The position numbers were made by a program, and so were the translations under genes. A stretch of 64,000 nucleotides of DNA from Vicinamibacteria bacterium (GTDB lineage: Bacteria > Acidobacteriota > Vicinamibacteria > Marinacidobacterales > Marinacidobacteraceae): positions 2,488,887 to 2,552,886 of the forward strand of contig OY729431.1 of assembly GCA_963422395.1 (NCBI GenBank), given 5' to 3'. Below the pieces are notes generated by a model. That model ran no database searches, was not told the DNA's origin, and worked only from the letters and a program-made list of their open reading frames with translations. This document shows positions 23,334 to 64,000 of this stretch, piece by piece (positions within the stretch are counted from its first letter, which is position 1; each line of letters opens with the position of its first letter).

Positions 23334-23530
23334 AGCAGCCTGTGGACGAAGTCACACGGCCAAAGGTCGGCGATGCCCAGTCCTCCCGGTGGGGGCCCCG
23401 GCTGAACCGCTTCGCTCGGCGCTGCGATTCCGTCGGAATACACCCGGTATGCCTCCCGAATCGCGCCTTGTCCGCCGGGCGCCTCCCCGACCTTGGGGCT
23501 CGCGCCACTTCATCCACAGACTGCTAGTCC
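23334..23530. mobile_element. MITE (~197 bp) with 21-bp terminal inverted repeats CTAGCAGCCTGTGGACGAAGT / CTAGCAGTCTGTGGATGAAGT.
   Basis: Near-perfect terminal inverted repeats and no coding capacity. The internal sequence matches the right end of the IS remnant at 20090..20160. It sits 31 nt after the rnd stop and 59 nt before the DAACS transporter start. Confidence 0.6.
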
Positions 23531-27322: not shown

Positions 27323-27377
27323 GAGAGTTCTCCTGTTAGGCAGTTTCCGATGATCCATTTGGAAACAGCGGGAATCA

Positions 27378-27786
27378 CTATTCAGTCGAGAGCCGCTGCG
27401 ACAGCATCTCGAATCGTTTCACCTTCGCCTCCGTGAGGCTGGCAAGACGCGCCATCAGCTCAGCCAAATCCTCTTCTTGCATTCCACGCGTGCGAAGCAT
27501 CGACTCGATTTCGCGGAATCTGGTTTCATAGAGGGCTCTGAGGTCGATCTCGGCACTCCTTCTGCTCGGGACGAGGGGAGGACCTGGTCCATCGAAGGCA
27601 ACTGACGCTTCCGTAACCAGCGGCGCGTACGTCCGGGCAGTGGCCTCCGCCTGGCTCTGATCGACAGTCGCAATGGTTGGTGCCACGACCGAAGGGGTCG
27701 AGGTGTTTCCGGTACTGTCGCAACCGGAACCGACCGACAGCGCCGCGAAGATCGCAACGAGAAGGACGAGGGGGTTCTTTCGGAAC
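27378..27786 (-). CDS. Hypothetical lipoprotein with a C-terminal helical domain.
   Basis: Signal and lipobox MFRKNPLVLLVAIFAALSVGSGC. A Ser/Thr/Pro-rich linker is followed by a helical C-terminus. It is the first gene of the low-GC three-gene cassette. Confidence 0.5.
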
Positions 27787-28065
27787 ATGACGAGGGTCTC
27801 CTCTATGGAAAGTGTCAAGCCTTTGCTGATAGTTCGAGAAACCGGCCGAGTCGAGGACAACGGTTGCGAAGAATCACCCATCCTCGTGCGTCCTCGGTTG
27901 GGTCTCTACGAGTACCAACTGGTTTAGCGTGCCCCAATCCAATTTTCAACAGCAGATCCCCCGAAAATATCCTTCAGGCTCGGGATGGACCGGATCGCCG
28001 TATGGATTTGACTTTCGGTCTGGTTGTCGCAAGACTGCAGGTGAGGACCTCGAAGAAGGACGCGA

Positions 28066-38146: not shown

Positions 38147-38447
38147 GTCAGGGTCTCCTCAGGATCTCCGGGAAGCGCACCGACCAGCGAGCACCGCGAA
38201 CCGGAGAGGCCCCGGACGCTATCCGCTCGCGAGCCGAGCCGTCAATGGCCACTCGGGGGCTGCGCCGGGGGAGCTTCGGACAGGCGGTCGCAGGGGAGCG
38301 GACCGAGGCCCCACGGAAAGCTGCTCTTCCCGCCTATAGAAGAGGATGTTGCGCTTGCTTCGCAGGGGCTCGATGGGTGTCCCCGCATGGATGACGATTT
38401 TTGTCCAGGTGATCGAGTATCCTGTCTTGCTTCAGACCCTCTCTGCG

Positions 38448-40700: not shown

Positions 40701-40948
40701 ACCGGCAGGGATCCGTTCCAACGCAGCGAGGTGGAGTTGCGGCTTCCCCGGAGACCTCCTGGAATTCGGGTTCCTCACCATGCGAACGAAAAGAGCCATC
40801 CTTCCCAGCCATGACGGGGGCCACCCGCTCCCAACGAGTCGCAGCACGGGGACTGAAACGGATGGCGAGTACCGATGAGGACTGTCGTCCCCGGCTCGCC
40901 CGGGGACTCGGATCGACGGAGAGTACAGAAGTTCGGGGGAGGAAGACG

Positions 40949-41150
40949 ATGCCCGACTCCACTCATGAATGGCCGGAAAGTCCTTCGGACTCTGGAGCGC
41001 CAAGGATTCGAATGCGTGCGCCGGCGGGGAAGCCACCGCATCCTTCGAACCTCTGCCAGAGGCAGCGAACGGGTGACAGTCGCCGGGAAATAAGGCGACG
41101 AGCTACGGAAGGGAACCCCGGTGGCGGTCTCCTTCGACCTGCTACCACCA
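40949..41150 (+). pseudogene. hicA-like mRNA-interferase toxin remnant, with an in-frame stop and a probable frameshift.
   Basis: MNGRKVLRTLERQGFECVRRRGSHRILRTSARGSERVTVAGK*GDELRKGTPVAVSFDLL aligns with the HicA family pattern (LeklGfelvrqkGSH...vtvP.H.gkdl..GTlrsIlkqagL). A TAA interrupts it at 41091..41093. A strong SD (GGGGGAGGAAG) serves an ATG at 40949 that is out of frame with the HicA frame at 40965. Confidence 0.4.
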
Positions 41151-41244
41151 AGAGAGCTTTCCACTGCCGCCGCCTCGACTGCAGCGTACCGGGAACGACC
41201 CCGGAGCGGCTGATGCGGGGCGGACTTCTCGCCGGGGCGGCCTG

Positions 41245-41916
41245 ATGTCGTACGGAGCAAGACTCCATGTGTGGGGCGATTACGCATGTTTCACTCGCCC
41301 CGAGATGAAGGCCGAGCGCGTCTCCTACGACGTCATGACACCGTCGGCAGCGCGTGGAATTCTGGAAGCGATCCATTGGAAGCCGGCGATCCGGTGGATC
41401 GTGGATCGGATCCAGGTGTTGAAACGGATCCGGTTCGAAACGATTCGAAGAAACGAACTCGGAAGCAAGATTCCGGCAGGAAACATCAGCGTCGCGATGC
41501 AGCGCGGCGACACCGGAGGTCTCGCCGTCTCGATCGAAAGCGACCGGCAGCAGCGCGCCGCCACCGTACTGCGCGATGTCGCTTATCTCATCGAAGCGCA
41601 CTTCATCCTCACACCCGTTGCAAACCCAGACGATACTCCGGCGAAACACGCCGCGATGTTCCACCGGCGCGCCGCTCGAGGGCAGTGCTTCCACCGACCG
41701 TATCTGGGGACCCGCGAGTTCCCGGCCCACTTCGCCCCGGTCCCGGATCCGCCGCCATCATCCTCCCTACCGACCGATCAGTGTGATCGTGATCTAGGCT
41801 GGATGCTGCACGACCTCGACTACGCGAATGCCGCGTCGCCCAGATTCTTCCGCGCAACGCTCCGGAATGGCGTGGTGCATGTCCCGCCGCTTGATTCAGA
41901 GGAGGTCAAGGGATGA
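41245..41916 (+). CDS. cas5c: Cas5c (Cas5d), type I-C.
   Basis: MSYGARLHVWGDYACFTRPEMKAERVSYDVMTPSAARGILEAIHWKP is the canonical Cas5d N-terminus. The stop overlaps the cas8c start (ATGA). Confidence 0.95.
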   Translation: MSYGARLHVWGDYACFTRPEMKAERVSYDVMTPSAARGILEAIHWKPAIRWIVDRIQVLKRIRFETIRRNELGSKIPAGNISVAMQRGDTGGLAVSIESDRQQRAATVLRDVAYLIEAHFILTPVANPDDTPAKHAAMFHRRAARGQCFHRPYLGTREFPAHFAPVPDPPPSSSLPTDQCDRDLGWMLHDLDYANAASPRFFRATLRNGVVHVPPLDSEEVKG

Positions 41917-43682
41917 GCATCCTCCAAGCACTCATCCAGCGCTATGAGCGACAGGCAGCACGCGACCAGGCGCCGAAGTACGGCTTTTCGGAGCAGAAAA
42001 TTTCCTATGCAATAGTAATCGATCGGAGCGGTCAGGCCATCGACACGATCGATCTGAGGGATACGAGCGGGAAGAAGCCGCGGCCCAGCAAACGCGAAGT
42101 GCCGAATCCCGTAGTCCGTACCGCCAAAATCCAACCCCAATTCCTGTGGGACAAGACTGCCTATGCCCTTGGAGTCAAGAAAGCCCAAACAGGTTCCGCA
42201 GTCCCCGCCGAACGGGGAGAGTACGATGCTTTCGTTTCCTGCCATCGGAAACTCCTCTCCTGTTCCGAAGATGATGGGCTCCAGGCATTTCTCGCCTTCC
42301 TCGATAACTGGCGGCCCGATCGCTACAGTGACCTCCGGAACAGCGACGACATGTTGGACACCAATGTCGTTTTTCGTTTCGAAGCCGATTCCAAATCGTT
42401 CTTGCACGACCGCCCGGCGGCGCGGGAAATCTGGGTGCGACTTCTGACAGGAAACGAGACCGAGCGACATCTGTGCCTGGTGACCGGCGAGCAACTCTCG
42501 ATAGCCCGGGTGCACTCCAAGATCAAGGGTGTCCGGGGCGCCCAGACTTCCGGGGCATCGATCGTCTCCTTCAACCAGAAGGCATTCAATTCTTTCGGAA
42601 AGGAACAGGGCGGGAACGCGCCGATCTCGGATCGCGCTGCTTTCGCATACACCACCTCACTGAACTCCCTTCTCGCCCGAGGCAGCCGCAATCGAATCCA
42701 GATCGGCGATACGACGACTGTGTTCTGGGCAGACTCCGGAGACGATCCAGAGAGTGCCGAAGCCGCCGATAGCCTGTTCTCTGCGCTCATGGGCGCGCCG
42801 CCGACCGACGAAGAAGAGGCAGCAGTGGTCCGGGACAAAGTCGAAAAATTTCAAGCCGGGCGTCCGGTCGAATCTGTCGAGCCGGGCGTTCAGGAGGACA
42901 CGCGCTTCTTCGTTCTTGGTCTCGCACCCAATGCGGCGCGCCTTTCCGTCCGATTCTGGCATGAAGACACGATCGGCCGCATGGGAGAACGGCTTCGAGA
43001 GCACTGGGGCGATCTTCATATCGAACCGGTCCCTTGGCACACGCCCCCGGATGCTTGGCGGCTCCTGCGCGAGACCGCCATTCAGGGCAAGTCGGAGAAA
43101 ATACCGCCAGTGCTCAGCGGCACGCTCATGAGCGCGATCCTCCGGGGCAGCAGATACCCTCGATCGTTGTTGGCCAATGTATTGCTGCGGATGCGCTCCG
43201 ACGGCAACATCAATGGGTTGCGTGCTGCGATCTGCAAGGCATGTCTCGCCCGCGACCATCGCTTCGGTCTCGAAGAGGAGGCACTCCCCGTGAGTCTAAA
43301 CCCCGACGAAAAAAACCCGGCCTATCGCCTCGGCAGACTGTTCGCCATCTATGAAGGCGTTCAGCAGGCCGCGATGGGACGACGGGTGAACGTGACGATC
43401 AAGGATCAGTTCTACGGATCCGCGTCCGCCACCCCGGCCGCGGTCTTTCCGGTAATCAACCGGAAGGCCGCCCACCACCTCGGATCCCTTCGCAAGGACA
43501 AAGGGGGGTTGGCCGTCTGGTACGAACGACACCTGGACGCGGTATTCGATGGCTTCGAGACGGCGTTCCCGCGCAGCCTCGGGATCGAGGAACAGGGCCG
43601 CTTCACCATCGGCTATTACCACCAGCGGGCAAGCCTCAAAGGGAAGCCCGCCAACGACAGCGTCGAGACGCCGGAGGAATGA
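41913..43682 (+). CDS. cas8c: Cas8c (Csd1) large subunit, type I-C.
   Basis: [14 protein letters not shown]... 589 aa, positioned between cas5c and cas7c, with Csd1-like conserved blocks. Confidence 0.95.
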
Positions 43683-44623
43683 ACATCATGTCAGCAATCC
43701 GTAACCGATACGATTTCGTGTATCTGTTCGACATCTCCAACGGAAACCCCAACGGAGATCCCGATGCCGGAAACCTGCCCCGGCTCGATCCAGAAACCAA
43801 CCAGGGTCTCGTCACCGATGTGTGCCTCAAGCGAAAGATTCGAAATTTCGTCACGATGACGAAGGGGGGCGAACCACCGTATGGAATCTATATCGCCGAG
43901 CGTGCCGTGCTGGAGCGGCTGCAGCAGCGTGCCTGGGATGCGATCGTCCCGGACGCCAGCGACGAAGCTCGGAAAAAGTTGCCGAAAGACGAGGCAAAGG
44001 CGCGAAAACTGACCCGATGGATGTGCGACAATTTCTTCGATGTACGGACATTCGGCGCGGTGATGTCCACGAAGGGCGCCAACTGCGGCCAGGTCCGGGG
44101 GCCAGTCCAGTTCTCGTTCGGCCGATCCGTTGAACCGATCGTCCCGCTGGAGGTTTCGATCACCAGGATGGCGGCGACCACACAGAAGGACGCCGACGAG
44201 AAGGGCGATGTTCGCACGATGGGGCGCAAGTACATCGTGCCGTACGGTCTGTATCGCGCCCACGGCTTCGTCTCGGCATGCCTGGCCGGAAACGGTGCCG
44301 GGGGAACCGGCTTCTCGCAAGAAGACCTGGATCTGGTGTGGACCGCCCTCGAACAGATGTTCGATCACGACCGCTCCGCGGCAAGGGGCGAGATGACAGC
44401 CCGCCGTCTCATCATATTCCGCCACGAGAGCACGCTCGGCAACACCGCCGCCCACCGACTCTTCGACCGCGTCCGGGTTTCGCGGATCCACGAGGAGCAG
44501 GAAGCCTCCCTCGGTGCACCTGCTTCACGGAGCCTGCCCCCGGCACGGTCGTACTCCGATTACTCCGTTGTCGTGGATGCCGAAAACCTTCCTGAAGGGA
44601 TCACGATCCTGGATCGGATCTGA
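43679..44623 (+). CDS. cas7c: Cas7c (Csd2) backbone subunit, type I-C.
   Basis: [51 protein letters not shown] is the Csd2 signature. Confidence 0.95.
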
Positions 44624-45273
44624 TGTGCGGCGAGGACACCGATGCCGCGGCGCCCATCTCCGAGAACGAACTCGTCCCGATTTCCGCTCTTCAACACCTG
44701 CTCTACTGTCCCCGGCAGTGCGCGCTGATCCATGTCGAGCGCCTGTGGATGGAGAATCGATTCACCGCCGAGGGTCGCATCCTCCACAACAAGGTCGAAA
44801 AAGCCGCTTCGGATCGCCGTTTCGGCGTCCAAACCGAGCGCAGCGTTCCCCTGCGATCCTGGCGCCTCGGCGTCTTCGGGATCGCCGATGTGGTTGAAGT
44901 TCACGACGATGGGTGCGTATTTCTCGTGGAGTACAAGCGAGGCCGTCCCAAGCAGCATCGCGCCGATGAAGTGCAACTCTGTGCACAGGCGATCTGTCTC
45001 GAAGAGATGCTGGATCGACAGATTCCCGGAGGTGCCTTGTTCTACGGCCGCACCCGCCGCCGGACGCCGGTCGTCTTCGATGCGGCACTCCGAGGCCTCA
45101 CCGAGCGCACAGCCAGGGGCGCCCGAAAAATGATCGCAACCGGGGTCACGCCCGCTCCGATCTATGAATCCTGGAAGTGCGAACCTTGTTCGCTGAAGGT
45201 CGTCTGTAAGCCCGAAAAAATGCAGCAGACCGCCACAGTCGAATCGTGGCTGGAGGAAGCGCTCGCTGACTGA
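44623..45273 (+). CDS. cas4: Cas4 RecB-like exonuclease with an Fe-S cluster.
   Basis: The N-terminal Cys (LLYCPRQ) and the C-terminal cluster WKCEPCSLKVVC are present, with a RecB nuclease motif. The TGATG overlap with cas7c indicates coupling. Confidence 0.95.
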   Translation: MCGEDTDAAAPISENELVPISALQHLLYCPRQCALIHVERLWMENRFTAEGRILHNKVEKAASDRRFGVQTERSVPLRSWRLGVFGIADVVEVHDDGCVFLVEYKRGRPKQHRADEVQLCAQAICLEEMLDRQIPGGALFYGRTRRRTPVVFDAALRGLTERTARGARKMIATGVTPAPIYESWKCEPCSLKVVCKPEKMQQTATVESWLEEALAD

Positions 45274-45281
45274 GCACCACA

Positions 45282-46322
45282 GTGCGCCGCCATCTGAACA
45301 CGCTCTATGTCACGACCGAAGGGGCGATGCTCCACAAGGACGGAGAGAACGTCGTCGTTCGCGTCGAACGGGAAGAACGATGTCGCGTACCGTTTCACAT
45401 CGTGGATGGGATCGTTTGTTTCGGCGCCGTCGGCGTCACCCCATCTCTGATCGCACACTGCGCGAAATTCGGGATAACCCTGTCTTTTCTGAGTTGGACT
45501 GGCCGATTCTCCGCTCGGGTCGAGGGGCCGGTATCGGGCAATGTGTTACTTCGACGCACTCAGTATCGGCGTGCCGACGACCCTGTAGGAACGGCCGCAT
45601 TGGTGAGAAGTTTTCTGACTGGCAAACTGGTCAACCAGCGGGCTGTAATTCGGCGAGCCCTTCGTGACCATCGGTCGAAACTCACCGCGGACTTCGAACA
45701 ACGACTGGTGACCTGCGAACGACGACTCACCGGCTCGATTCGGCGCGCATCGAAAGGCACCGATACAGATTCTCTGAGGGGAATCGAGGGAGAAGCGGCG
45801 CGCTCGTACTACGGCGTGTTCGAATGTCTGATTCTGCGCGACCGATCATCACTCACATTCGCTCGTCGCTCTCGCCGTCCGCCAATGGATCCGGTCAACG
45901 CATTGCTTTCCTTCCTCTACACACTGCTGGTCCACGACTGTCGCTCGGCACTCGAATCCGTGGGTCTCGATCCCGCAGTCGGCTATCTGCACCGTGATCG
46001 ACCCGGACGACCAAGTCTCGCACTCGACCTGGTAGAGGAGCTCCGTCCAGTCATCGCCGACCGCCTTGCTCTGTCCATGATCAATCGGCGTCAAATTCTC
46101 CCGGGAGATTTCGAGACCGCAGTCAGCGGAGCGGTCAACATGAGCGAGAAAGCTCGCAAGGTATTACTCGTTGCCTACCAAGAACGCAAGCGTGACGAAA
46201 TCACCCATCCATTCCTCGGTGAGAAGACCACTGTTGGACTCGTTCCATTCTTGCAAGCAACAATAATGGCACGCTGTCTGCGCGGAGATCTAGACGCTTA
46301 TCCTCCCTTCCTCTGGAAGTAA
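45282..46322 (+). CDS. cas1: Cas1 integrase.
   Basis: 346 aa. LNTLYVTTEGAMLHKDGENVVV is the Cas1 N-terminus, and the conserved catalytic region is present. Confidence 0.95.
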   Translation: MRRHLNTLYVTTEGAMLHKDGENVVVRVEREERCRVPFHIVDGIVCFGAVGVTPSLIAHCAKFGITLSFLSWTGRFSARVEGPVSGNVLLRRTQYRRADDPVGTAALVRSFLTGKLVNQRAVIRRALRDHRSKLTADFEQRLVTCERRLTGSIRRASKGTDTDSLRGIEGEAARSYYGVFECLILRDRSSLTFARRSRRPPMDPVNALLSFLYTLLVHDCRSALESVGLDPAVGYLHRDRPGRPSLALDLVEELRPVIADRLALSMINRRQILPGDFETAVSGAVNMSEKARKVLLVAYQERKRDEITHPFLGEKTTVGLVPFLQATIMARCLRGDLDAYPPFLWK

Positions 46323-46330
46323 TACAAATC

Positions 46331-46621
46331 ATGCTGATTCTGGTCACCTATGATGTTGCAACTCAGAGCAGCGAGGGGCGACGGCGCCTGCGCCGCATTG
46401 CTCGGCATTGCAAAAACTACGGGCAGCGCGTCCAGTATTCCGTCTTCGAATGTCTGGTGGACCCGGCTCAGTGGACCGCCCTTCGGGCGGCCCTCCTCGC
46501 CGAGATGGATCCTGCCGAAGACAGCCTTCGGTTCTACCGACTGGGGTCGAACTGGAGACCTCGGATCGAGCATGTGGGGGCCAAGCGATCCTACGACCCC
46601 GACGCCCCATTGGTGATGTGA
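46331..46621 (+). CDS. cas2: Cas2.
   Basis: MLILVTYDVATQSSEGRRRLRRIARHCKNYGQRVQYSVFEC. 96 aa. Canonical. Confidence 0.95.
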   Translation: MLILVTYDVATQSSEGRRRLRRIARHCKNYGQRVQYSVFECLVDPAQWTALRAALLAEMDPAEDSLRFYRLGSNWRPRIEHVGAKRSYDPDAPLVM

Positions 46622-46800
46622 TCGGTGCGAACCCGTAGCGGTAGCCACTGACCAAAGCTTTCGCACAATTCGAAAATCATTATATTTCAACGAATTAGAC
46701 GAGCTATTCCACCCTGGTAATAGCTAGACTCCAACGGCTGGAGCAGGTTCGCACAAAGAGGCGGAATCTGCCAAGAGCCACCAGCAGATATATTCCTGCG
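46622..46800 (+). promoter_or_regulatory. CRISPR leader.
   Basis: A 179-bp AT-rich stretch (aaaatcattatatttcaacgaattagacgagctattccaccctggtaatagctagact) lies between cas2 and the first repeat. The array's degenerate repeats are at the distal end, which supports this polarity. Confidence 0.6.
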
Positions 46801-48849
46801 GTCGCCCCCCGCACGGGGGGCGCGGATTGAAACTTCTGGAATCGCACATTGGAGACATTGAATGCGGTGTCGCCCCCCGCACGGGGGGCGCGGATTGAAA
46901 CCGTGAGGCTGTCCAGGATCTCTCCTGCTATGTATGGTCGCCCCCCGCACGGGGGGCGCGGATTGAAACTCCTTTGCCGGCTTGCCGGCGGTTGATGTTG
47001 GAGTCGCCCCCCGCACGGGGGGCGCGGATTGAAACATCGCAGTCCGCGCATTTCCTCGCGTCGCTCTTTGTCGCCCCCCGCACGGGGGGCGCGGATTGAA
47101 ACGCACGCTGGGGCAGGAAAGCCGAAGAGCTCTATGTCGCCCCCCGCACGGGGGGCGCGGATTGAAACTCATCGAACCGGGGGCAAGCCCCCCAAAGGAA
47201 AAAGTCGCCCCCCGCACGGGGGGCGCGGATTGAAACATCGTGTTTTTCCTTTGCCGGCGGGCTGCCGGCGTCGCCCCCCGCACGGGGGGCGCGGATTGAA
47301 ACTGATCAGGATTGACAATCGCTAGCCGACTGCGCGACGTCGCCCCCCGCACGGGGGGCGCGGATTGAAACGAGTGAACGGAACGCCATTCGCGTAGGCA
47401 GCCGAGTCGCCCCCCGCACGGGGGGCGCGGATTGAAACTCGTCTGTACGGCGTGCTGGGCAGCCCGTAGGGCAGCGTCGCCCCCCGCACGGGGGGCGCGG
47501 ATTGAAACTCGTGTACGGGCTGGTCAGCCCGCCCAGCCCAGCGTCGCCCCCCGCACGGGGGGCGCGGATTGAAACAGTGGGGTGCCGCCGCCGCGCAGTC
47601 CGCGCAAAGTCGCCCCCCGCACGGGGGGCGCGGATTGAAACCCTCTCTGGTCGCGATCATCGGCAGTCTGCCGCGTCGCCCCCCGCACGGGGGGCGCGGA
47701 TTGAAACCCCACTTACTGCCACGCTGCCCTACCCCATGCGTCGCCCCCCGCACGGGGGGCGCGGATTGAAACCATATCCGCATCGCATTCCGCGCAGGCC
47801 TTCACGGTCGCCCCCCGCACGGGGGGCGCGGATTGAAACTATTCCATCCGGACTTGGTCCGACACCGCCTTGAGTCGCCCCCCGCACGGGGGGCGCGGAT
47901 TGAAACCACTTCCTGCTGACTGCGGCAGTCGGCATCTTGGTCGCCCCCCGCACGGGGGGCGCGGATTGAAACTTTGTCTCCTCCTCGATTTCCGCCCATC
48001 GGCGAAGGACGTCGCCCCCCGCACGGGGGGCGCGGATTGAAACTCCTTTGGCGGCCGGCGGCCGCCGTGTTGTTTGAGTCGCCCCCCGCACGGGGGGCGC
48101 GGATTGAAACGCTAGGCGGGCGTTGGATTTGCGCCTCCCGCCGCCGGTCGCCCCCCGCACGGGGGGCGCGGATTGAAACGTTGGATGCGGCCCGGACCAA
48201 AGCTCCTTGCATGCGTCGCCCCCCGCACGGGGGGCGCGGATTGAAACCTCCTTTCGGCGGCCGGCGGCCTCCGTGTTTGAGTCGCCCCCCGCACGGGGGG
48301 CGCGGATTGAAACGGTTGCGATTCGTGGAGTATGTCTGCTCGAATCGGGTCGCCCCCCGCACGGGGGGCGCGGATTGAAACCCTTCATCGCAACCGAACA
48401 CCGCCCCCGGCGGCGTCGCCCCCCGCACGGGGGGCGCGGATTGAAACCTTTGGCGCCGGGTTAGGCGCCGGTTTGATTCGCGTCGCCCCCCGCACGGGGG
48501 GCGCGGATTGAAACCAAGTGCACCTTGCCGGAGTGCTTTGAGGACCTGGGTCGCCCCCCGCACGGGGGGCGCGGATTGAAACTTCCTGGATTCGCGGCGA
48601 TGATGCCGTGTTTCCTGTCGCCCCCCGCACGGGGGGCGCGGATTGAAACCGCGCGCGTGTCTGTCCCTAGTGGGGACGAGCTGCGTCGCCCCCCGCACGG
48701 GGGGCGCGGATTGAAACGCCAAAGCATCGCTGACGCTCGCGAAGCCCGCGGTCGCCCCCCGCACGGAGGGCGCGGATTGAAACTCCATGGATTGGCGCCG
48801 AGGAACCGGTGTTCCCGTCGCCCCCCGCGCGGGGGGCGCGGATTGAAAC
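46801..48849 (+). CRISPR. Type I-C CRISPR array: 31 repeats of the 33-bp GTCGCCCCCCGCACGGGGGGCGCGGATTGAAAC and 30 spacers of 32-38 bp.
   Basis: Repeats start at 46801, 46869, 46937, 47003, 47070, 47136, 47204, 47270, 47339, 47406, 47476, 47543, 47609, 47675, 47740, 47807, 47874, 47940, 48011, 48078, 48147, 48215, 48281, 48349, 48415, 48482, 48550, 48617, 48685, 48751 and 48817. The last two carry point mutations (GGAGGG and GCGC). The repeat forms a 7-bp GCCCCCC/GGGGGGC hairpin. Confidence 0.97.
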
Positions 48850-52660: not shown

Positions 52661-52788
52661 CGACAGACCCCTCGGCAGCCCGTGGAGGAAGCGGCGCGAC
52701 CCCCGAGACGGATGCCGCTCGCATACCCGGCACGGCCGTGCGGCTTCGTCCAGGGACTGTTCACCGGCCCCGCGCGCGGGCGGAAGGC

Positions 52789-58082: not shown

Positions 58083-59792
58083 ATGCCTCGATACTCGACG
58101 CTTCCTCTCTTTGCCGCGGCCTGCCTCTCGGCGGCGGCCGTCTCGGCACAACCCGCCTACGACCTGCTGCTCACCGGCGGCTGGGTGTTCGACGGCAGCG
58201 GAAACCCGGCAGTCCGCGCGGATGTCGGAATTCGGGGCGATGAAGTGGCGGCGGTCGGCCGGTTGGCGGGAAGACCCGGCCACCGGGCGGCACGCACCAT
58301 CGCGGTGGACGGACTCTTCCTCGCTCCGGGGTGGGTGGACCTGCACTCGCACGCCGACCGGTCGCTGGTCGGCGACGATCTGGAAGCGCGCAAGGCGTTG
58401 AATCTGGTGGCTCAGGGGATCACCACGGTGGTTCTGGGCGCCGACGGGCGGAATCCGATCTGGCCGATTCGGGACGAGATCGCCGCCTACCAGAGCCGTG
58501 GGATCGGACTGAATGTGGTCCCGGTAGTGGGACATTCGACGGTGCGGCTCGAAGTGATGGGCGCGGACCACGAACGCCCCGCCGCCGCGGACGAGGTCGC
58601 CCGGATGGCGGAGTTGGTCCGGGAAGGCATGGAGGACGGAGCCTGGGGCCTCGGCGCCGGCCCCGAGTACCGCCCGGCCCGTTTCTCCGAGACCAGCGAG
58701 ATCGTCGCTCTGGCCCAGGTGGTCGCCGAGTACGACGGCTTCTACTACTCCCACCAGCGCAGCCAGTCGCCGATGCCCCGCTGGCAAGTACCGAGTATCG
58801 TGGATGGGCCGACCCTCACCGGGACCGAAGGGATGGCCGAGACCATCCACATCGGGCGCGAGACGGGGATCCGGGTGGTGGGGACCCACATCAAGGCGAA
58901 GGGACCGTCGAGCTGGGGCCAAGCGGCGAAGGATGTGCAGGCGATCCGGGAGGCCCGGCGGCAGGGGGTGCAGGTCTATCTCGATCAATACCCCTTCGAA
59001 ACCTTCGGCGGCGGGCCGGTCGGGGTGATCCCGGTCTGGGGATTCGCGCCGCCGGGGACCGACCGTTCCGGCGGGCTGGACGATCCGAAGTGGCGGACCC
59101 CGGGTCTCCTGAACCTCGAAAACCTCGAAGCGAACCTGGCCGACGAGGCGATCCGCACCGAACTGCTCCACGATCTGGAACAGCAGCTCGACCTCTTCGG
59201 GGGCGCCGACCGGCTGGTCATCGTCCTTTTTCCGGAGGAACCCTCGCTGGTGGGGCGGACGGTCGCGGCCGTCTCGGCGGACGCCGGCAAGAGCGTCACC
59301 GAGACCCTGATCGACTTCGCCCGCACCGGGAATCAGGAACTGCTCCATGGGGTGCTGATCCGCCCGATCGCCGGACACCGTTTCGATGTGGAGACCTACA
59401 TGGTCCAGGACTACACCGCGACCTCCACCGACGCCGGGGTCGCGCTCGAGGCCGCTCCCGGACGCCATCCCCGTTACTGGGGGACCTACCCGCGGAAGAT
59501 CGCCCACTATGTCCGCGAGCGCGGGATCATCAGCCTCCCCTTCATGATTCGATCCTCGACGAGCCTCCCGGCAGCCATCGTGGGGCTGACCGATCGGGGA
59601 TGCCTCCGGGTCGGCTGCAAGGCCGACCTCGTGGCCTTCGACTACGAACGGGTCGAGGACCGCGCGACGATCCTCGATCCGGCCGCCGCTCCGACGGGCA
59701 TCCCATGGGTGCTGGTGGGCGGTGAGGTCGCCATCGAGAACGGCCGAGCCACCGGCGCGCTGGCCGGAGTCGTCATCCGCCGCGGCGGCTGA
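58083..59792 (+). CDS. N-acyl-D-amino-acid deacylase (D-aminoacylase) family amidohydrolase, secreted.
   Basis: Signal peptide MPRYSTLPLFAAACLSAAAVSAQ. The metal-binding HSH motif is in GWVDLHSHAD. D-aminoacylase family blocks DQYPF, VAFD and the C-terminal beta-sandwich are present. Confidence 0.8.
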   Translation: MPRYSTLPLFAAACLSAAAVSAQPAYDLLLTGGWVFDGSGNPAVRADVGIRGDEVAAVGRLAGRPGHRAARTIAVDGLFLAPGWVDLHSHADRSLVGDDLEARKALNLVAQGITTVVLGADGRNPIWPIRDEIAAYQSRGIGLNVVPVVGHSTVRLEVMGADHERPAAADEVARMAELVREGMEDGAWGLGAGPEYRPARFSETSEIVALAQVVAEYDGFYYSHQRSQSPMPRWQVPSIVDGPTLTGTEGMAETIHIGRETGIRVVGTHIKAKGPSSWGQAAKDVQAIREARRQGVQVYLDQYPFETFGGGPVGVIPVWGFAPPGTDRSGGLDDPKWRTPGLLNLENLEANLADEAIRTELLHDLEQQLDLFGGADRLVIVLFPEEPSLVGRTVAAVSADAGKSVTETLIDFARTGNQELLHGVLIRPIAGHRFDVETYMVQDYTATSTDAGVALEAAPGRHPRYWGTYPRKIAHYVRERGIISLPFMIRSSTSLPAAIVGLTDRGCLRVGCKADLVAFDYERVEDRATILDPAAAPTGIPWVLVGGEVAIENGRATGALAGVVIRRGG

Positions 59793-59918
59793 ACTCGGCC
59801 ATCATTCCCCGACCAGCGGCGGTGCACCGCATGAGCCGCCGGATCCAGCGGCGGTTTCGGCAGTCGGATTGTGATGATCTGAAGCGCCGCTTGAATATTA
59901 CATGATAATCTGCAGCAT

Positions 59919-61088
59919 GTGTATGACAGACGCTTGGACCTCCCACCTCCCGGAGCGCGCACCTTCTTCCTCTGGGGGCCGCGGCAGGTCGGCAAGACCA
60001 CATTGCTGCGGCGAAGCTATCCCGAAGCCCGCTGGGTGGACTTGCTGAAGGCCGACGAGTTCCGACGATACGCGACCCGGCCCGAGGCCCTGCGGTTGTC
60101 GCTGCAGGCGGAGGGCGCCGACCCGGCCCGGCAGGTGGTGGTGGATGAAGTGCTCAAGGTTCCCGCGCTGCTCGACGAAGTGCACTGGATGGTCGAGAAC
60201 CTCGGGCTCCGCTTCGCGCTTTGCGCCTCGAGCGCTCGCAAGGTGCGTCGCCGCACCGCCGGGCTCCTCGGCGGGCGGGCGGTGCGACACGAGCTGCGCG
60301 GCCTCACTGCGGTAGAACTAGGCGGCGATTTCGATCTCCGGCGCATGGTGAACCACGGATTTCTGCCCCGCGTGCATCAGGACCCCGAGCCCGTGCTGCT
60401 GGTCGAGTCGTACATCGCCGACTATCTCAAGGAAGAAGTCGCTGCCGAGGGACTGGTTCGCAACCTGCCGGCTTTCGCGGACTTCCTCGAGGCCGCCGCG
60501 ATCGCGGACACCGAGATGGTCAACTTCTCGAATGTGGCGCAGGACTGCGGTGTGAGCAGCCAGACGGCGAAGGCGTACTACGGCATTCTCGAAGACACCC
60601 TGCTCGGGCGGTGGCTTCCGGCCTTCCGGAAACGCCCGAAGCGGCGCGTGCTGCGCGCTCCCAAGTTCTATTTCGCCGATGTCGGCGTCGTGAATCGGCT
60701 CGCGCGCCGCGGCGCGATAGAGCCGGGTTCCGAACTCTTCGGAAAGGCGTTCGAGAACTGGGTCTTCCACGAACTGGACGCGAGCCTGAGCTATGGGGGT
60801 TCGCCCGAGCGGCTCTCCTATTGGCGCCTCGCTGGCGGGACGGAAGTGGACTTCATCGTCGGCGACATGCGAATCGCCATCGAGGCCAAGGCGGCAGCGC
60901 GTGTCGGCTCCCGCCATTTGAAAGGGTTGCGGGCACTCGCCGAGGACCATCCCGAGGTTCGGCGCCGCATCGCCGTCTGCCTCGAACCGCAGGCGCTCGT
61001 GACCGACGACGGCATCGATATCCTGCCGGTGGCCGACTTCCTCGAAAGCCTCGGGAACGGCGACCTGCTGGGGCAGACCGTCCGGTAG
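59919..61088 (+). CDS. DUF4143-containing AAA+ ATP-binding protein (COG1373-like).
   Basis: Walker A FLWGPRQVGKTTLL and Walker B VVVDEV are present, with a DUF4143-type C-terminal region. It is preceded by an AT-rich promoter-like stretch (ttgaatattacatgataatctgcagcatgtgtATG). Confidence 0.8.
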   Translation: MYDRRLDLPPPGARTFFLWGPRQVGKTTLLRRSYPEARWVDLLKADEFRRYATRPEALRLSLQAEGADPARQVVVDEVLKVPALLDEVHWMVENLGLRFALCASSARKVRRRTAGLLGGRAVRHELRGLTAVELGGDFDLRRMVNHGFLPRVHQDPEPVLLVESYIADYLKEEVAAEGLVRNLPAFADFLEAAAIADTEMVNFSNVAQDCGVSSQTAKAYYGILEDTLLGRWLPAFRKRPKRRVLRAPKFYFADVGVVNRLARRGAIEPGSELFGKAFENWVFHELDASLSYGGSPERLSYWRLAGGTEVDFIVGDMRIAIEAKAAARVGSRHLKGLRALAEDHPEVRRRIAVCLEPQALVTDDGIDILPVADFLESLGNGDLLGQTVR

Positions 61089-61292
61089 CAGTCCGTGGAT
61101 GAAATGGCGCGCGCCCTCGTCCACGGACTGCCAGTTTCGAAATTCCGAGGATCGTTTCGAGAAGATGTCTGCAGACTATCCCGGCACGGCCGTCACGATC
61201 GAGGTCAATACCTCGGACACAGCTCGCTATGTCGTCGCACGGGAGGGGCCGGTCCCGGATGATTTGCCACGGAGAAGGGCGTGATCCGATCC

Positions 61293-61657
61293 ATGTCGAA
61301 GCCGATCGTCGTTCCGGTCCATGACTTCATAGGTGGGCCGCTGCGGAAGATGGCGAGCATCTCTACGAGAAGATCGTTCCGCTCCTCGCTCAGGAAACGC
61401 TGGTGGTGCTCTCGTTCGAGGATGTGGAAATCATCATTTCTGCTTTCCTGAACGCTTCCGTAGGGCGTCTCTACGGCGAGTTTCCCGAAGAGACTATTCG
61501 GAAATTCCTTTCTTACGAGGGTCTGCAGAAGGATGATCTGGATATGCTGAAACGAGTCGTGGACAATGCGAAGAAATACTTCAGCAATCCACTCGACTAC
61601 GACCGGGCGTGGACAGAGGAGATCGGGCCGGAGGATGAGGAGCCGGATGTGTCATGA
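61293..61657 (+). pseudogene. DUF4325 (STAS-like domain) gene with a 1-nt frameshift.
   Basis: ATG 61293 gives MSKPIVVPVHDFIGG, which then drifts out of frame. The +2 frame continues AEDGEHLYEKIVPLLAQETLVVLSFEDVEIIISAFLNASVGRLYGEF..., matching the DUF4325 pattern (G..iye.i.p.l....vvLdFegV..issSFl). Local GC is low. Confidence 0.45.
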
Positions 61658-61800
61658 AGAACAGGATACATGACATCCAAGATTACGAATTCCTCCCTGA
61701 ATTTCTCTTTCTGTTCGACACGAATGTATGGATGTATATCCACGATATTTCCTCACCGACGAACAAAGCGCGGCACGCGGCCTCTGCGGCAAGCCGATGA
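61654..61800 (+). pseudogene. PIN-domain-like N-terminal fragment (truncated).
   Basis: MKNRIHDIQDYEFLPEFLFLFDTNVWMYIHDISS. The DTNV motif is the first acidic residue block of PIN nucleases. The ORF stops after 48 aa, where GC rises again. The ATGA overlaps the DUF4325 stop. Confidence 0.3.
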
Positions 61801-62005
61801 GCGAAGCGATCAGCCCGCCGTACCCCGCACCCGGCACGGCAGTGTGGTACGGCTTCGGGAGGAAACGGCAGGCGGCCTCATCAACCTCGCGGAAGCTCTC
61901 GATCCGATAACCGCGCGTTTCGCGACCCGCGCGATGCTCCAGCTACCGCCACGCTCGGGCGGCCCGGGGGCGGGCGCGCAGGGCGCCCGCCCGGGTCTTG
62001 GAAGA

Positions 62006-64000
62006 TCAGAAAGAGTAGCGGACCGCCAGCTCGATCTGGCGGGAAGGCGCGTTGATGTTCGCCGCCAGCGAGTTCTCGTTGTTGCCGAAGCTGGCTGACC
62101 GCAGGTTGCCGTTCGGGACATCGAAGTTCACCCGATCGAAGGCATTCAGCACCTGGAAGACCAGTTCGATCCCGTGGGTCCCGGAAAGGTAGAAATTCTT
62201 CGAGGCGCGGAAATCCACATTCAGGAAAGGCGAGCAGGTGAAGGATCCCACCGGGGCCCGACCGGTGGACTCGCGGTACGAGTTCGCCAGGCCGAGGTCC
62301 AGATTGCGGCATCCATAGGCGTTGGCGGCGGTGAAGCCCGGCGCGAGGTCCCCGGAGTAGCCGTCGCCGTTCAGGTTCGTTCCCGAGTTCACCAGCACCG
62401 GAAGCGGTGAGCGGTAGTCGAGGATCGTCGAAACCCGGATGTCTCCCGGCAGCACGAGGATGCCGCTGCTCACCAGCCGGTGCCGCCGGTCGGTGCCGCC
62501 CGGGTGGGTCGCCCACGCGTACCCCGGAAAGCTGCTGTCCCAGCTCGAGGGCTCGGTGTTCCGGGTCCAGAGTTCGGTGGTCTCGGTCTTGGCGAGCGTA
62601 TAGCTGACGAGGAACTGCCAGCCGTCCGCATAGCGCTTCTCGAACTTGGCGTAGAACGCCTGGTAGTCGTGATCGAGGATCGAATAGGAGGCGTTCACCC
62701 GGTTGAACTGGGGCCAGGGCCGCACGCCGTCCACCGGGTAGTTGATGTTCACGTTCCGCATCGCGTCGGCGCGGGTGGCCACCCGGGTCAGGTCGAGGGA
62801 GAGCGCCATGTCGTCCCGCAACTGATGCGCGAGCCCGAGGTTGAAGTGGTGGGCGTAGGGCTGCTGGTAGCCGTTGTCGAGAGTCGTGATGTTCGGCGGC
62901 GCCGTGGAGAGGAACTCCTCGCGCGAACGGCCGCCGAGCGGGTCGAGGAAGTCGGGGTCGTCGATGATGATCGTCTGCCCCTGGTGCCACCAGCGTTCGC
63001 CGAAGTTGGTGAGGGTGCGGATGTTCTCGAAGAACTTGCCGTAGCCGCCCTTCACCGTGGTGCGTCCGGTGCCGTCGCCCGAGAGGTCGTACACGAAGCC
63101 GATCCGCGGGCCCCAGTTGTTCCGGTCGCCCCTGGCGTCGGCACCCTCGTGGAACGGGATCGGCAGCGGGAACCGGATGTCCCGGATGTCCTCGTTGAAG
63201 GTTCCCACCTGCAGGTCGTAGCGGAGCCCCAGGTTCAGGGTGAGGCGGTCGGTGCTCCAGTCGTCCTGGGTATAGATCGAGAAGTGGTGCACCGGCACCC
63301 GGTCGTAGCGCGGCTGGGTCTGCGTGTACTGGATCGGGTGGGTTTCGGGATCGTTCGGATCGAACGCCTCGTCGGTGTCGAAGGTGAATCGGCCCGAGTA
63401 GTTGCCCACGCTGTCCGCCGCGAAATCGATCCAGTTGTAGTCCACACCGAACTTGATCTGGTGATCCCCGCCGAACCCCTGCTGGAAGAGGGTGAAGTCG
63501 TCCTTGAACTGCCAGCGGGTCTCGGGGCCCATTTGGTCGTTGCAGGATCCGGTGCGCAGGGTGGGCCGCCGAATGTTCATTTCACAGAGGGCGAGGCGCT
63601 CGGAGTTGAAATCGCCGGGATCCCAGGAACCGTGGGAGAACGCCTCGCTGACTTCGTACTTCGAGAAGGCGCGCTGGAAGCGGAACTCGTTCAGCGAGTT
63701 CGCGCCGGTCACCGAAGTGACTCCGAATACCTCGGCGTTCCGCGGCACCGCGAAGTCGAAACCGTCCACGGTGATCCCCCGCGCGTTCAGATTCGGGCGG
63801 TACTCGTTCTCCCAGGCTACCCGCAGCCAGATCGAATGGTCTTCGTTCAGCTGGTGGTTCAACCGGCCGAGCCACATGTAGCGCCACTCGTCCTTCGGGA
63901 AGGTTCCCTCGACCTCGGGGAATACGCCGCCGTTCGAGATCGTGTAGAACAGCTCCTCGTCGGTGCGCTCGAACGCGAAGAAGAAGTGGGTCCGATCCTC
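62006..64000 (-). CDS. TonB-dependent outer-membrane receptor. Partial: the N-terminus lies beyond the window end.
   Basis: The beta-barrel C-terminus ends ...QIELAVRYSF with a terminal Phe. The frame is open through 64000 (EDRTHFFFAFERTDEELFYTISNGG...). Confidence 0.8.
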   Translation of the reverse strand, partial: EDRTHFFFAFERTDEELFYTISNGGVFPEVEGTFPKDEWRYMWLGRLNHQLNEDHSIWLRVAWENEYRPNLNARGITVDGFDFAVPRNAEVFGVTSVTGANSLNEFRFQRAFSKYEVSEAFSHGSWDPGDFNSERLALCEMNIRRPTLRTGSCNDQMGPETRWQFKDDFTLFQQGFGGDHQIKFGVDYNWIDFAADSVGNYSGRFTFDTDEAFDPNDPETHPIQYTQTQPRYDRVPVHHFSIYTQDDWSTDRLTLNLGLRYDLQVGTFNEDIRDIRFPLPIPFHEGADARGDRNNWGPRIGFVYDLSGDGTGRTTVKGGYGKFFENIRTLTNFGERWWHQGQTIIIDDPDFLDPLGGRSREEFLSTAPPNITTLDNGYQQPYAHHFNLGLAHQLRDDMALSLDLTRVATRADAMRNVNINYPVDGVRPWPQFNRVNASYSILDHDYQAFYAKFEKRYADGWQFLVSYTLAKTETTELWTRNTEPSSWDSSFPGYAWATHPGGTDRRHRLVSSGILVLPGDIRVSTILDYRSPLPVLVNSGTNLNGDGYSGDLAPGFTAANAYGCRNLDLGLANSYRESTGRAPVGSFTCSPFLNVDFRASKNFYLSGTHGIELVFQVLNAFDRVNFDVPNGNLRSASFGNNENSLAANINAPSRQIELAVRYSF

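What the first reader, a model, noticed from the sequence alone, without database searches (positions are those of the whole stretch)
59793..61800. Second low-GC islet: DUF4143 AAA+ ATPase, frameshifted DUF4325 STAS-like gene and truncated PIN-like fragment
Between the D-aminoacylase and TonB-receptor genes, GC falls to roughly 50-55% and there is an AT-rich promoter. The islet has three parts: an intact DUF4143 ATPase (Walker A GPRQVGKTT); a DUF4325 STAS-like ORF readable only across a 1-nt frameshift (…VHDFIGG / AEDGEHLYEKIVPLLAQETLVVLSFEDVEIIISAF…); and a 48-aa ORF with a PIN-type DTNV N-terminal motif that ends where GC rises. This looks like a decaying accessory module of DUF4143-type ATPase, STAS-like regulator and PIN nuclease, probably a horizontally acquired toxin-antitoxin or defence-type cassette being eroded.
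Basis: partly seen in the sequence, partly recalled or inferred. Interest (0 to 1): 0.5.

Follow-up and report, generated by a model that had tools for sequence, protein, structure and literature searches.

The report
Decayed vapKSC operon beside DUF4143 ATPase
The low-GC patch is the wreck of a three-gene anti-phage toxin-antitoxin operon first described in 2026 (vapKSC: kinase, STAS antitoxin, PIN toxin), broken in three places, and it lies next to an unrelated, intact DUF4143 ATPase gene; this is an ordinary case of a defence cassette being lost.

Summary
Only 61.1-61.8 kb is low in GC (48-56% against 67% for the window). The DUF4143/AAA_14 ATPase gene (59919-61088) has native composition (67% GC, GC3 0.83). 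It has orthologues at the same locus in eight sister Vicinamibacteria species, at the same divergence as the flanking genes, and it is under purifying selection. It is not part of the islet.

The islet is the remnant of a vapKSC operon (Chambers et al., EMBO J 2026). A closely related metagenome contig (L001) carries the intact cassette at the same site. Profiles of the vapS and vapC families hit the VapS-VapC crystal structure 9z7o (E 7e-20 and 1e-11).

In 80 metagenomic loci this vapS subfamily is mostly embedded inside Hma (BREX-related) operons, so the remnant is probably the last trace of a larger lost island. The kind of system is known and this copy is dead, so interest is low.

The parts
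59890..59915 (+). AT-rich element CTTGAATATTACATGATAATCTGCAG, 3 nt upstream of the GTG start of the ATPase gene. In the orthologues it reads CTTGAAAAAAACATGATAATTTCAAG, with an inverted repeat CTTGAAA/TTTCAAG. It is a putative promoter or operator of the DUF4143 gene.
   Evidence: It is conserved in all 7 orthologous loci, while sequence further upstream is unalignable. No canonical + strand sigma-70 match was found. Function is inferred.
59919..61088 (+). Intact DUF4143 / AAA_14 ATPase gene (389 aa; PADLOC candidate PDC-S01). It has Walker A GPRQVGKTT, Walker B VVVDE and a C-terminal PD-(D/E)xK-like EVDF...IEAK motif. It is a long-term resident of this locus and not part of the low-GC islet.
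   Evidence: Pfam E 8.6e-30 and 4.3e-12. PADLOC PDC-S01 E 1.4e-50. GC 67%, GC3 0.83. Full-length orthologues in eight sister species at the same locus. Omega 0.12-0.17.
61088..61131 (.). A 44-nt palindromic hairpin overlapping the last base of the ATPase stop codon and ending at the vapK truncation breakpoint. It belongs to a small family of palindromic repeats in this window.
   Evidence: Arms 61088-61102 and 61117-61131. dG -34.1 kcal/mol, z -5.0. The same termini occur at 52675-52760, 23335-23524 and elsewhere: 13 matches against 2.55 expected.
61133..61284 (+). vapK pseudogene fragment: the last 50 codons plus stop of a 296-aa STAS+GHKL kinase gene (the tail after the G2 box, ...GTAVTIEVN...). 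The 61-aa ORF 61099-61284 is a chimera of hairpin sequence and this fragment.
   Evidence: 96% identical to residues 247-296 of the L001 kinase, and 42% to the L002 kinase. DNA homology to L001 starts at 61133.
61293..61657 (+). vapS pseudogene (DUF4325 STAS-like antitoxin). ATG at 61293. A 10-nt deletion at about 61341-61344 (CTG|CGG) removes CVS plus one base and shifts frame 0 to frame 2. Stop TGA at 61655-61657, overlapping the vapC ATG (ATGA). It keeps the phospho-acceptor Ser in IISAFLNA.
   Evidence: Pfam DUF4325 E 4.1e-14. 82% identical to the intact 123-aa P0001. Indel mapped. The family profile hits PDB 9z7o_A (VapS) at E 7.1e-20, with VapS S48 aligned to this Ser.
61654..61766 (+). 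vapC pseudogene fragment: the first 37 codons of a 185-aa PIN toxin gene (it keeps only the first catalytic Asp, in FDTNVW). The deletion junction is 61766|61767. The remaining 10 codons of the 48-aa ORF are read-through into unrelated DNA.
   Evidence: 100% identical to L001 PIN residues 1-37. L001 1711-2297 (587 bp) is absent. The intact L001 protein matches PIN PF01850 at E 7e-6, above the cut-off. The family profile hits 9z7o_C (VapC) at E 1.1e-11.
61767..62005 (.). GC-rich (about 73%) non-coding spacer between the deletion junction and the stop of the outer-membrane receptor gene. Most of it is shared only with L001; the last 40 bp or so (61967-62005) also align with some sister species.
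   Evidence: 95% identical to L001 2298-2540, with four small indels. Homology to sister species resumes at 61967-62008.

Best explanation
Two independent things lie side by side.

(1) 59919-61088 is a functional single-gene unit, a DUF4143/AAA_14 ATPase with a C-terminal PD-(D/E)xK nuclease-like domain (PADLOC candidate PDC-S01). It has sat in the variable D-aminoacylase-to-receptor locus of this marine Vicinamibacteria (Acidobacteriota) clade since before the sampled species diverged. It is probably an NTP-dependent nuclease acting on foreign DNA; this is inferred and unproven.

(2) 61133-61766 is the dead remnant of a horizontally acquired, low-GC vapKSC operon. In the intact system (shown by Chambers et al. 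2026 for an Escherichia homologue) VapS, a STAS-domain antitoxin, binds the PIN toxin VapC and blocks it. VapK, a STAS+GHKL kinase predicted to be switched on by single-stranded DNA, phosphorylates a conserved Ser of VapS, which frees VapC and stops growth of the infected cell.

In this genome three separate lesions have destroyed the operon. A deletion removed everything upstream of vapK codon 247, with the junction at a palindromic repeat after the ATPase gene. A 10-nt deletion frameshifts vapS. A 587-bp deletion removed vapC from codon 38 onwards. Nothing functional is expected to remain.

The cassette probably arrived as part of a larger Hma (BREX-related) island that has been deleted piecemeal (inferred).
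For: Intact ancestral state:
- L001, a metagenome contig, is 99.0% identical to 61767-64000 and 92.5% identical to 61133-61766. At the same place it carries a 296-aa GHKL gene, a 123-aa DUF4325 gene and a 185-aa PIN gene.

Identity with vapKSC:
- A 35-sequence VapS profile hits PDB 9z7o_A 'Escherichia VapS' at E 7.1e-20.
- The profile of the downstream PIN proteins hits 9z7o_C 'Escherichia VapC' at E 1.1e-11.
- The phospho-acceptor S48 aligns with a Ser that is at least 90% conserved and is Thr in one member. VapC D28 aligns with the invariant Asp of DTNVW.
- Of 44 proteins in the upstream position, 42 match HATPase_c and 27 match STAS_2. The N-box E..N..H and the G1 and G2 boxes are invariant.
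- The order K-S-C holds in 60/66 and 61/66 metagenomic loci and on a Deinococcus plasmid.
- Mechanism and naming are from PMC13373217.

Lesions.

Foreign origin:
- The remnant is 48-61% GC and the intact L001 genes 48-54%, against 67% for the window.
- None of the 23 Vicinamibacteria-type sister loci tested has vapK/S/C.

ATPase is independent and functional.

Hma link:
- HmaA lies upstream in 31/39 loci, HmaB downstream in 39/45 and HmaC in 26/29. The same arrangement is seen.
- L001 has a DUF499/HmaC fragment directly upstream of vapK.
Against: - The intact state rests on one metagenome contig (L001), which ends 330 bp upstream of vapK. It is therefore not shown that the L001 strain has the DUF4143 gene, nor what was lost on the left side in the window.
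- The window itself holds no Hma remnant.
- A single VapK sequence scores below the Pfam cut-off for HATPase_c (20.9 against 26.4 bits), and the VapK profile has no significant PDB hit.
- Divergence from L001 is about 6% across 61179-61990 but 0.25% in the adjacent receptor gene (dS 0.205 in vapS against 0.009). Simple vertical decay does not predict this.
- The defence role of PDC-S01 is unproven. One representative gave no protection against T4, T5 or T7 in E. coli (10.1101/2024.09.26.614923).
Confidence: 0.9

Rival explanations
1. One reading: one decaying accessory module made of the DUF4143 ATPase, a STAS-like regulator and a PIN nuclease, acquired together.
For: The three lie on the same strand within 1.9 kb. 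The DUF4143 family is itself a defence candidate (PDC-S01).
Against: The ATPase has native GC and GC3. Full-length orthologues occur in eight sister species at the same locus without any vapK/S/C, and omega is 0.12-0.17. A vapK 3' fragment and a hairpin separate it from vapS. In 80 metagenomic loci the gene upstream of vapS is a STAS+GHKL kinase.
Confidence: 0.03
2. Sequencing or assembly artefact: the real genome has an intact DUF4325 gene (or an intact cassette), and the frameshift is an error.
For: The source looks like a metagenome-derived assembly, since its relatives are all MAGs. The public annotation calls only the 84-aa 3' ORF (P0002).
Against: The lesion is a 10-nt deletion in non-repetitive sequence, flanked by a possible 3-nt CTG microhomology, not a homopolymer slip. 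Two further independent lesions (loss of vapK codons 1-246 and a 587-bp loss in vapC) cannot be base-calling errors. Repairing vapS alone would still leave an antitoxin with no toxin and no kinase.
Confidence: 0.03
3. The remnant is not dead. The 84-aa C-terminal VapS fragment (61403-61657, GTG start) is kept as an orphan antitoxin or decoy, for example against vapC toxins carried by incoming elements, or full-length VapS is made by programmed frameshifting.
For: The 84-aa ORF keeps the phospho-Ser motif and the C-terminal helix that blocks VapC in the crystal structure. Omega over this part against L001 is 0.38, that is below 1. Solitary VapS-like genes do exist: L010/L011 have one among small phage-like genes.
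Against: It lacks about 40 N-terminal residues of the STAS fold, including the invariant D-G. The omega value sums both lineages and mostly reflects the time before the lesion. There is no slippery site, and three conserved residues (CVS) are physically missing, so no frameshift can restore the protein. No promoter-like site was found upstream.
Confidence: 0.04

Closest known systems
vapKSC anti-phage toxin-antitoxin system (Chambers, Rani, Min, Villa, Corbett, EMBO J 2026, PMC13373217; structure PDB 9z7o)
   Same: The gene order is kinase-STAS-PIN, with overlapping vapS stop and vapC start. The VapS and VapC families are homologous to the crystallised proteins (E 7e-20 and 1e-11). The phospho-acceptor Ser and the catalytic Asp are conserved, and the kinase has the STAS+GHKL architecture.
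   Different: The window copy is a triple pseudogene (50 codons of vapK, a frameshifted vapS, 37 codons of vapC). It is from Acidobacteriota, only about 33-40% identical to the Escherichia proteins over the aligned parts. Its subfamily is mostly embedded in Hma operons, a context the paper's main text and held supplements do not mention.
PADLOC candidate PDC-S01 = COG1373 / AAA_14 + DUF4143 ATPase with a PD-(D/E)xK domain (Steczkiewicz 2012, PMC3424549; Payne et al. 2024 preprint; PMC12988326)
   Same: The domain architecture and motifs are the same. The PADLOC model hits at E 1.4e-50. It is a single-gene unit in a variable locus.
   Different: Here it is syntenic and vertically inherited across species rather than obviously mobile. 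A defence function has not been shown for the family, and one test was negative.
Hma system / type-1 DUF499-centred BREX-related (BR) system (PMC11232893; PMC12839542; 10.1101/2024.01.29.577857)
   Same: This is the usual host operon of this vapKSC subfamily: SNF2+NOV_C helicase | vapKSC | DUF1156 methylase | HEPN+DUF499 ATPase. Hma is known to carry embedded defence genes between hmaA and hmaB.
   Different: No Hma gene or fragment is left in the window. Only L001 keeps a 68-residue DUF499 fragment.
CapK-CapS regulators and the SpoIIAB-SpoIIAA / RsbW-RsbV partner-switching pairs
   Same: A GHKL Ser kinase phosphorylates a conserved Ser at the start of a STAS helix, which breaks a protein-protein complex (PMC13373217). 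The N-box and G-boxes are conserved in VapK.
   Different: The partner released is a PIN nuclease, not a sigma factor or DNA. VapS lacks the wHTH of CapS, and VapK lacks the HTH of CapK.
Classical type II VapBC toxin-antitoxin pairs; PIN.4 group of Matelska et al. 2017 (PMC5499597)
   Same: The toxin is a PIN-domain protein with the conserved acidic residues. [quoted passage not shown]
   Different: The antitoxin is a STAS protein, not a DNA-binding VapB, and is encoded together with a kinase. Release is by phosphorylation rather than by antitoxin proteolysis.

Membership tests
vapKSC | Three-gene operon in the order vapK (kinase), vapS (STAS), vapC (PIN) | tested here: met
   The fragments lie in this order on the + strand of the window (61133-61284, 61293-61657, 61654-61766). 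The operon is intact in the syntenic L001. The order holds in 60/66 and 61/66 related loci.
vapKSC | VapS: STAS domain plus a short C-terminal helix, homologous to the crystallised VapS | tested here: met
   Pfam DUF4325 E 4.1e-14 on the rejoined window protein. The family profile hits 9z7o_A at E 7.1e-20 over residues 20-128, including the C-terminal region. The window gene is nevertheless frameshifted.
vapKSC | Conserved Ser/Thr phospho-acceptor in VapS (Escherichia S48) | tested here: met
   S48 (S66 of the tagged chain) aligns with the Ser of I-S-A-F-L-N-A. That column is Ser in at least 90% of 35 sequences and Thr in P0071. The window keeps it in IISAFLNA.
vapKSC | VapC: complete PIN domain with its catalytic acidic residues (D28 and others) | tested here: not met
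   The window keeps only codons 1-37, with the first Asp. E69, D142/D145 and D163/D165 (L001 numbering) are deleted. The feature is met in L001 (PIN E 7e-6; 9z7o_C E 1.1e-11). The window copy is therefore a remnant, not a working member.
vapKSC | VapK: CapK-like STAS + GHKL kinase without the N-terminal HTH | tested here: not met
   The window keeps only the last 50 residues. In the family, 42/44 proteins match HATPase_c and 27/44 match STAS_2, and E144/N148/H152, D178xGxG and G219GxG are invariant.
vapKSC | VapC toxicity neutralised by VapS; phage protection that depends on VapK | not testable with these tools
   This was shown only for the Escherichia sp. E4736 operon (PMC13373217).
PDC-S01 / DUF4143 ATPase (COG1373) | AAA_14 P-loop domain followed by the DUF4143 region with a PD-(D/E)xK motif, as a single gene | tested here: met
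   Both Pfam domains score above their cut-offs. PADLOC PDC-S01 E 1.4e-50. Walker A, Walker B and EVDF...IEAK are conserved in 7 orthologues.
PDC-S01 / DUF4143 ATPase (COG1373) | Anti-phage activity | not testable with these tools
   It is a candidate by 'guilt by embedding' only. One representative gave no protection in E. coli B.
Hma / type-1 BR system | SNF2-type helicase-nuclease, DUF1156 methyltransferase and DUF499 ATPase genes | tested here: not met
   tblastn of all three against the window gives no hit. They are present around vapKSC in most distant relatives, and as a DUF499 fragment in L001.
VapBC type II toxin-antitoxin | DNA-binding VapB antitoxin encoded upstream of the PIN toxin | tested here: not met
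   The upstream gene is a DUF4325 STAS protein. No VapB-type family was hit.

The most novel reading that the evidence does not exclude
In this VapS subfamily vapKSC is not a free-standing toxin-antitoxin operon but a regular insert of Hma (type-1 BREX-related) operons, between the helicase-nuclease and the methylase. HmaA lies upstream in 31/39 loci, HmaB downstream in 39/45 and HmaC in 26/29. If VapK senses ssDNA, it could read out the action, or the phage-induced failure, of the Hma helicase-nuclease and fire the PIN toxin as a second, abortive line of defence. The window's fragment would then be the last trace of a whole Hma island lost from this genome. The genomic association is measured here; the functional coupling is speculation, and it concerns relatives rather than the window.
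Probability: 0.35. Interest if true: 0.5.

Novelty: new member of a known kind. Interest (0 to 1): 0.2.

Why it matters
For the window it matters little: a defence cassette acquired by horizontal transfer has been inactivated by three deletions, a routine outcome of defence-island turnover.

It is useful as a clean, datable example, because an intact sister allele exists. It shows that a vapKSC operon is lost toxin, kinase and antitoxin alike. It also corrects the annotation in three ways:
- the 84-aa 'protein' is a pseudogene piece;
- the 61-aa and 48-aa ORFs are gene stumps;
- the DUF4143 ATPase is a separate, conserved gene.

The wider point is that this vapKSC subfamily sits inside Hma operons in about 80-90% of sampled loci. 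That suggests an experiment on layered immunity, but it is not a property of this window.

Tried and rejected
- Exact-sequence look-ups of the 84-aa ORF (P0002) and of the ATPase found no contig. The cluster look-up gave no accession.
- NCBIfam gave nothing for any of the four proteins.
- PADLOC has no model for VapS. It gave only weak hits for VapK (DrmA GHKL region, E 1.7e-6) and VapC. The cassette is therefore not one of the PADLOC v2 HEC/PDC candidates.
- VapK profiles (5 and 44 sequences) found no significant PDB relative. The best were ZraS at E 0.07 and STAS proteins TM1442 and RsbS at E 0.2-0.5. The ATPase has no PDB relative by sequence.
- Rfam found nothing, either in 59000-62500 at E up to 1 or in the whole window at gathering score. 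There is no tRNA near the islet.
- The idea that the DUF4143 gene was inserted into vapK was rejected. The orthologues show that the ATPase is the older resident, so the left junction is better read as a deletion.
- The hairpin 61088-61131 is not found after the orthologous ATPase genes or in L001. It is specific to this genome.
- A remnant of the DUF2177 membrane-protein gene that follows the ATPase in sister species was looked for and not found.
- Structure prediction was not run, because the sequence hits to 9z7o were already decisive.
Full report
**1. What is in the sequence**

The interval lies between a 592-aa Amidohydro_3 (D-aminoacylase-type) gene ending at 59792 and an outer-membrane beta-barrel receptor gene on the minus strand whose stop is at 62006. 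The window is 67.1% GC.

The drop in GC is real but much narrower than described:

| Interval | GC |
|---|---|
| 59919-61088 (ATPase gene) | 67.0% (GC3 0.83; the D-aminoacylase gene has GC3 0.84) |
| 61089-61280 | 60.9% |
| 61281-61657 | 54.1% |
| 61654-61800 | 47.6% |
| 61801-62005 | 72.7% |

Pfam gives the following:
- The 389-aa ORF matches DUF4143 (E 8.6e-30) and AAA_14 (E 4.3e-12).
- The rejoined split ORF matches DUF4325 (E 4.1e-14), and its 84-aa 3' part alone scores E 1.3e-10.
- The 48-aa ORF gives no hit.

**2. The intact ancestral cassette**

A search with the rejoined DUF4325 protein returned 71 relatives. The closest intact one is P0001 (123 aa, 82% identity). It lies on a 6.8-kb metagenome contig, L001, which is syntenic with the window:
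- L001 2298-4535 equals window 61767-64000 at 99.0% identity (the receptor gene).
- L001 1070-1710 equals window 61133-61766 at 92.5% identity.

L001 carries three complete genes of 48-54% GC:
- a 296-aa protein with a weak HATPase_c match and clear N, G1 and G2 boxes;
- the 123-aa DUF4325 protein;
- a 185-aa PIN protein (PF01850, E 7e-6, above the cut-off).

Measured against L001, the window has three lesions:
- Homology begins only at 61133, so only the last 50 codons of the first gene survive (96% identical). The 61-aa ORF 61099-61284 is a chimera.
- The DUF4325 gene lacks 10 nt. The family has GGPLCVS(A/T)EDG, and the window reads GGPL|AEDG one base out of frame. L001 separately lacks one Gly codon, so the net difference from L001 is 7 nt.
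- L001 1711-2297 (587 bp) is missing. This leaves 37 codons of the PIN gene, 100% identical to L001, with the junction at 61766|61767 and no real microhomology.

Fragments of genes cannot be the ancestral state, so the window form is derived from an L001-like form.

**3. What the cassette is**

A profile of 35 DUF4325 relatives hits PDB 9z7o chain A, 'Escherichia VapS', at E 7.1e-20. A profile of the downstream PIN proteins hits chain C of the same entry, 'Escherichia VapC', at E 1.1e-11.

The entry belongs to Chambers et al., EMBO J 2026 (PMC13373217), who define the vapKSC operon:
- VapK is a CapK-like STAS+GHKL kinase.
- VapS is a STAS protein whose C-terminal helix reaches the VapC active site.
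- VapC is a PIN toxin.

They show that VapC is toxic and that VapS neutralises it. The phospho-mimic S48E abolishes binding. The operon gives about 2 logs of protection against one phage, and this protection depends on VapC D28, VapS S48 and VapK F54. Activation of VapK by ssDNA is predicted, not shown.

The family features hold here:
- S48 aligns with the Ser of ISAFLNA. That column is Ser in at least 90% of sequences and Thr in one, and the window retains it.
- D28 aligns with the invariant Asp of DTNVW.
- Of 44 proteins in the upstream position, 42 match HATPase_c and 27 match STAS_2. E144, N148, H152, D178xGxG and G219GxG are invariant.

The DUF4325-PIN coupling had already been listed as group PIN.4, function unknown, in 2017 (PMC5499597).

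**4. The DUF4143 ATPase is a separate matter**

A scan of species-representative genomes with the D-aminoacylase returned 27 loci. Of these, 23 are from marine or sponge Acidobacteriota of the class Vicinamibacteria ('Ca. Marinacidobacterium') at 78-85% identity.

- In eight of them a full-length DUF4143 orthologue lies between the same flanking genes. It is 69-83% identical in protein and about 70-77% in DNA, the same divergence as the flanks. A ninth locus has a fragment.
- In at least nine others it is absent.
- The distances to the neighbouring genes vary from 0.1 to 8 kb.
- None of these loci has vapK, vapS, vapC or Hma genes.
- Omega against six orthologues is 0.12-0.17. Walker A, Walker B and the EVDF...IEAK motif are conserved.
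- A 26-nt AT-rich element next to the start codon is conserved in all seven loci, while the rest of the upstream region is unalignable.

The gene matches PADLOC candidate PDC-S01 (E 1.4e-50). That family is very common, contains a PD-(D/E)xK domain and is unvalidated. One representative gave no protection in E. coli.

The segment specific to the window and L001 lineage is therefore about 61089-61967.

**5. Likely history**

In six sampled contexts and then in 80 metagenomic loci, this VapS subfamily sits in a fixed arrangement:

SNF2+NOV_C helicase (HmaA) | vapK | vapS | vapC | DUF1156 methylase (HmaB) | HEPN+DUF499 ATPase (HmaC)

| Neighbour | Present / loci with enough flank |
|---|---|
| VapK | 60/66 |
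| VapC | 61/66 |
| HmaA | 31/39 |
| HmaB | 39/45 |
| HmaC | 26/29 |

Hma operons, now also called type-1 BREX-related systems, are known to carry embedded defence genes in exactly this slot (PMC11232893; 10.1101/2024.01.29.577857; PMC12839542). The vapKSC paper does not mention Hma, either in its text or in the supplements held.

L001 has a 68-residue DUF499 fragment directly upstream of vapK. The window has none.

The most economical reading is that an Hma-type island entered between the ATPase and the receptor gene and has been deleted stepwise. L001 is an earlier stage and the window a later one. The left junction in the window coincides with the end of a 44-nt palindrome (dG -34 kcal/mol, z -5) that belongs to a repeat family of this genome. 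This may have played a part in the deletion (inferred).

**6. What does not fit**

Between the window and L001 there are 52 differences in 61179-61990 (about 6%, with indels) but only 5 in the next 2000 bases of the receptor gene. Estimated dS is 0.205 in vapS and 0.116 in the vapK stump, against 0.009 in the receptor gene. No difference at all occurs in 61637-61790.

Derived amino-acid changes in VapS fall on both lineages (4 in the window, 6 in L001, 7 unresolved). The excess is therefore not just decay in the window.

Recombination is the likely cause, either a recent sweep of the receptor gene or an exchange of vapKS alleles. It cannot be resolved with one contig.

**7. Verdict**

The system is a member of a kind described in 2026, and here it is dead. 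The neighbouring ATPase is a common, uncharacterised defence candidate. Interest is low. The only lead of wider value is the tight embedding of this vapKSC subfamily in Hma operons.

Noticed in passing
window 61088-61131, 52675-52760, 23335-23524, 20143-20157, 19297-19311: A family of palindromic elements shares the termini GCAG(Y)C(Y)GTGGA(N)GAAG...CTTC(N)TCCAC(R)G(R)CTGC, with cores of 14 to about 160 nt. The 15-mer occurs 13 times at up to 3 mismatches against 2.55 expected. The elements fold strongly (-34, -49 and -100 kcal/mol). They have no Rfam match and are absent from sister-species loci. They look REP- or MITE-like.
   Followed up: partly
window 61179-64000 versus L001 1070-4535: Divergence is a mosaic: about 6% in the islet (dS 0.205 in vapS) but 0.25% in the adjacent receptor gene (dS 0.009), with a sharp boundary at the receptor stop codon and a difference-free stretch at 61637-61790. 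This is unexplained; recombination is suspected.
   Followed up: partly
L002-L009, L040-L119 (metagenome loci): vapKSC of this subfamily is embedded between the helicase and the methylase of Hma / type-1 BREX-related operons in about 80-90% of loci with enough flank. A few loci show partial cassettes, for example L094, L104 and L107.
   Followed up: yes
L010 86-445, L011 59-418: A VapS-like gene (P0034) stands alone among many small unannotated genes plus an fn3 protein, a phage-like context, with no vapK or vapC. Its motif reads ISDFLNA, with an Asp right after the phospho-acceptor Ser. It could be a phage-borne antitoxin mimic.
   Followed up: no
window 38346-48200: The broad lower-GC stretch (58-63%) is a type I-C CRISPR-Cas locus: Cas3 (HD + helicase), Cas5d, Csd1/Cas8c, Cas7 and Cas1. 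It is followed by an array of at least 21 repeats, GTCGCCCCCCGCACGGGGGGCGCGGATTGAAAC, starting at 46801.
   Followed up: partly
window 27000-28100: The 'first low-GC islet' (50-58% GC) holds only small hypothetical proteins with signal-like N-termini: a Cys-rich 109-aa ORF at 27029-27358(-) and a 167-aa ORF at 27378-27881(-). By the look of the translations, not by an HMM search, it lies between what appear to be an aromatic amino acid hydroxylase-like gene and a sigma-70-family gene.
   Followed up: no
L019 12048-13206; also L017, L018, L020, L023, L034: In sister species the slot between the D-aminoacylase and the DUF4143 gene often holds a 132-aa PIN protein followed by a 249-aa PP2C phosphatase. 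A DUF2177 membrane protein follows the ATPase. None of these is in the window.
   Followed up: partly
L001 47-250: There is a pseudogene fragment of a DUF499/HmaC ATPase (residues about 617-684 of about 1100, 55% identical, with an in-frame stop upstream) directly upstream of the intact vapK. This shows that the L001 island is itself decaying.
   Followed up: yes
window 21900-22002: ARAGORN calls a 103-nt tRNA-Gly(CCC), but Rfam finds no tRNA, or any other family, at gathering score anywhere in the window. The call is doubtful, or the gene is interrupted.
   Followed up: no
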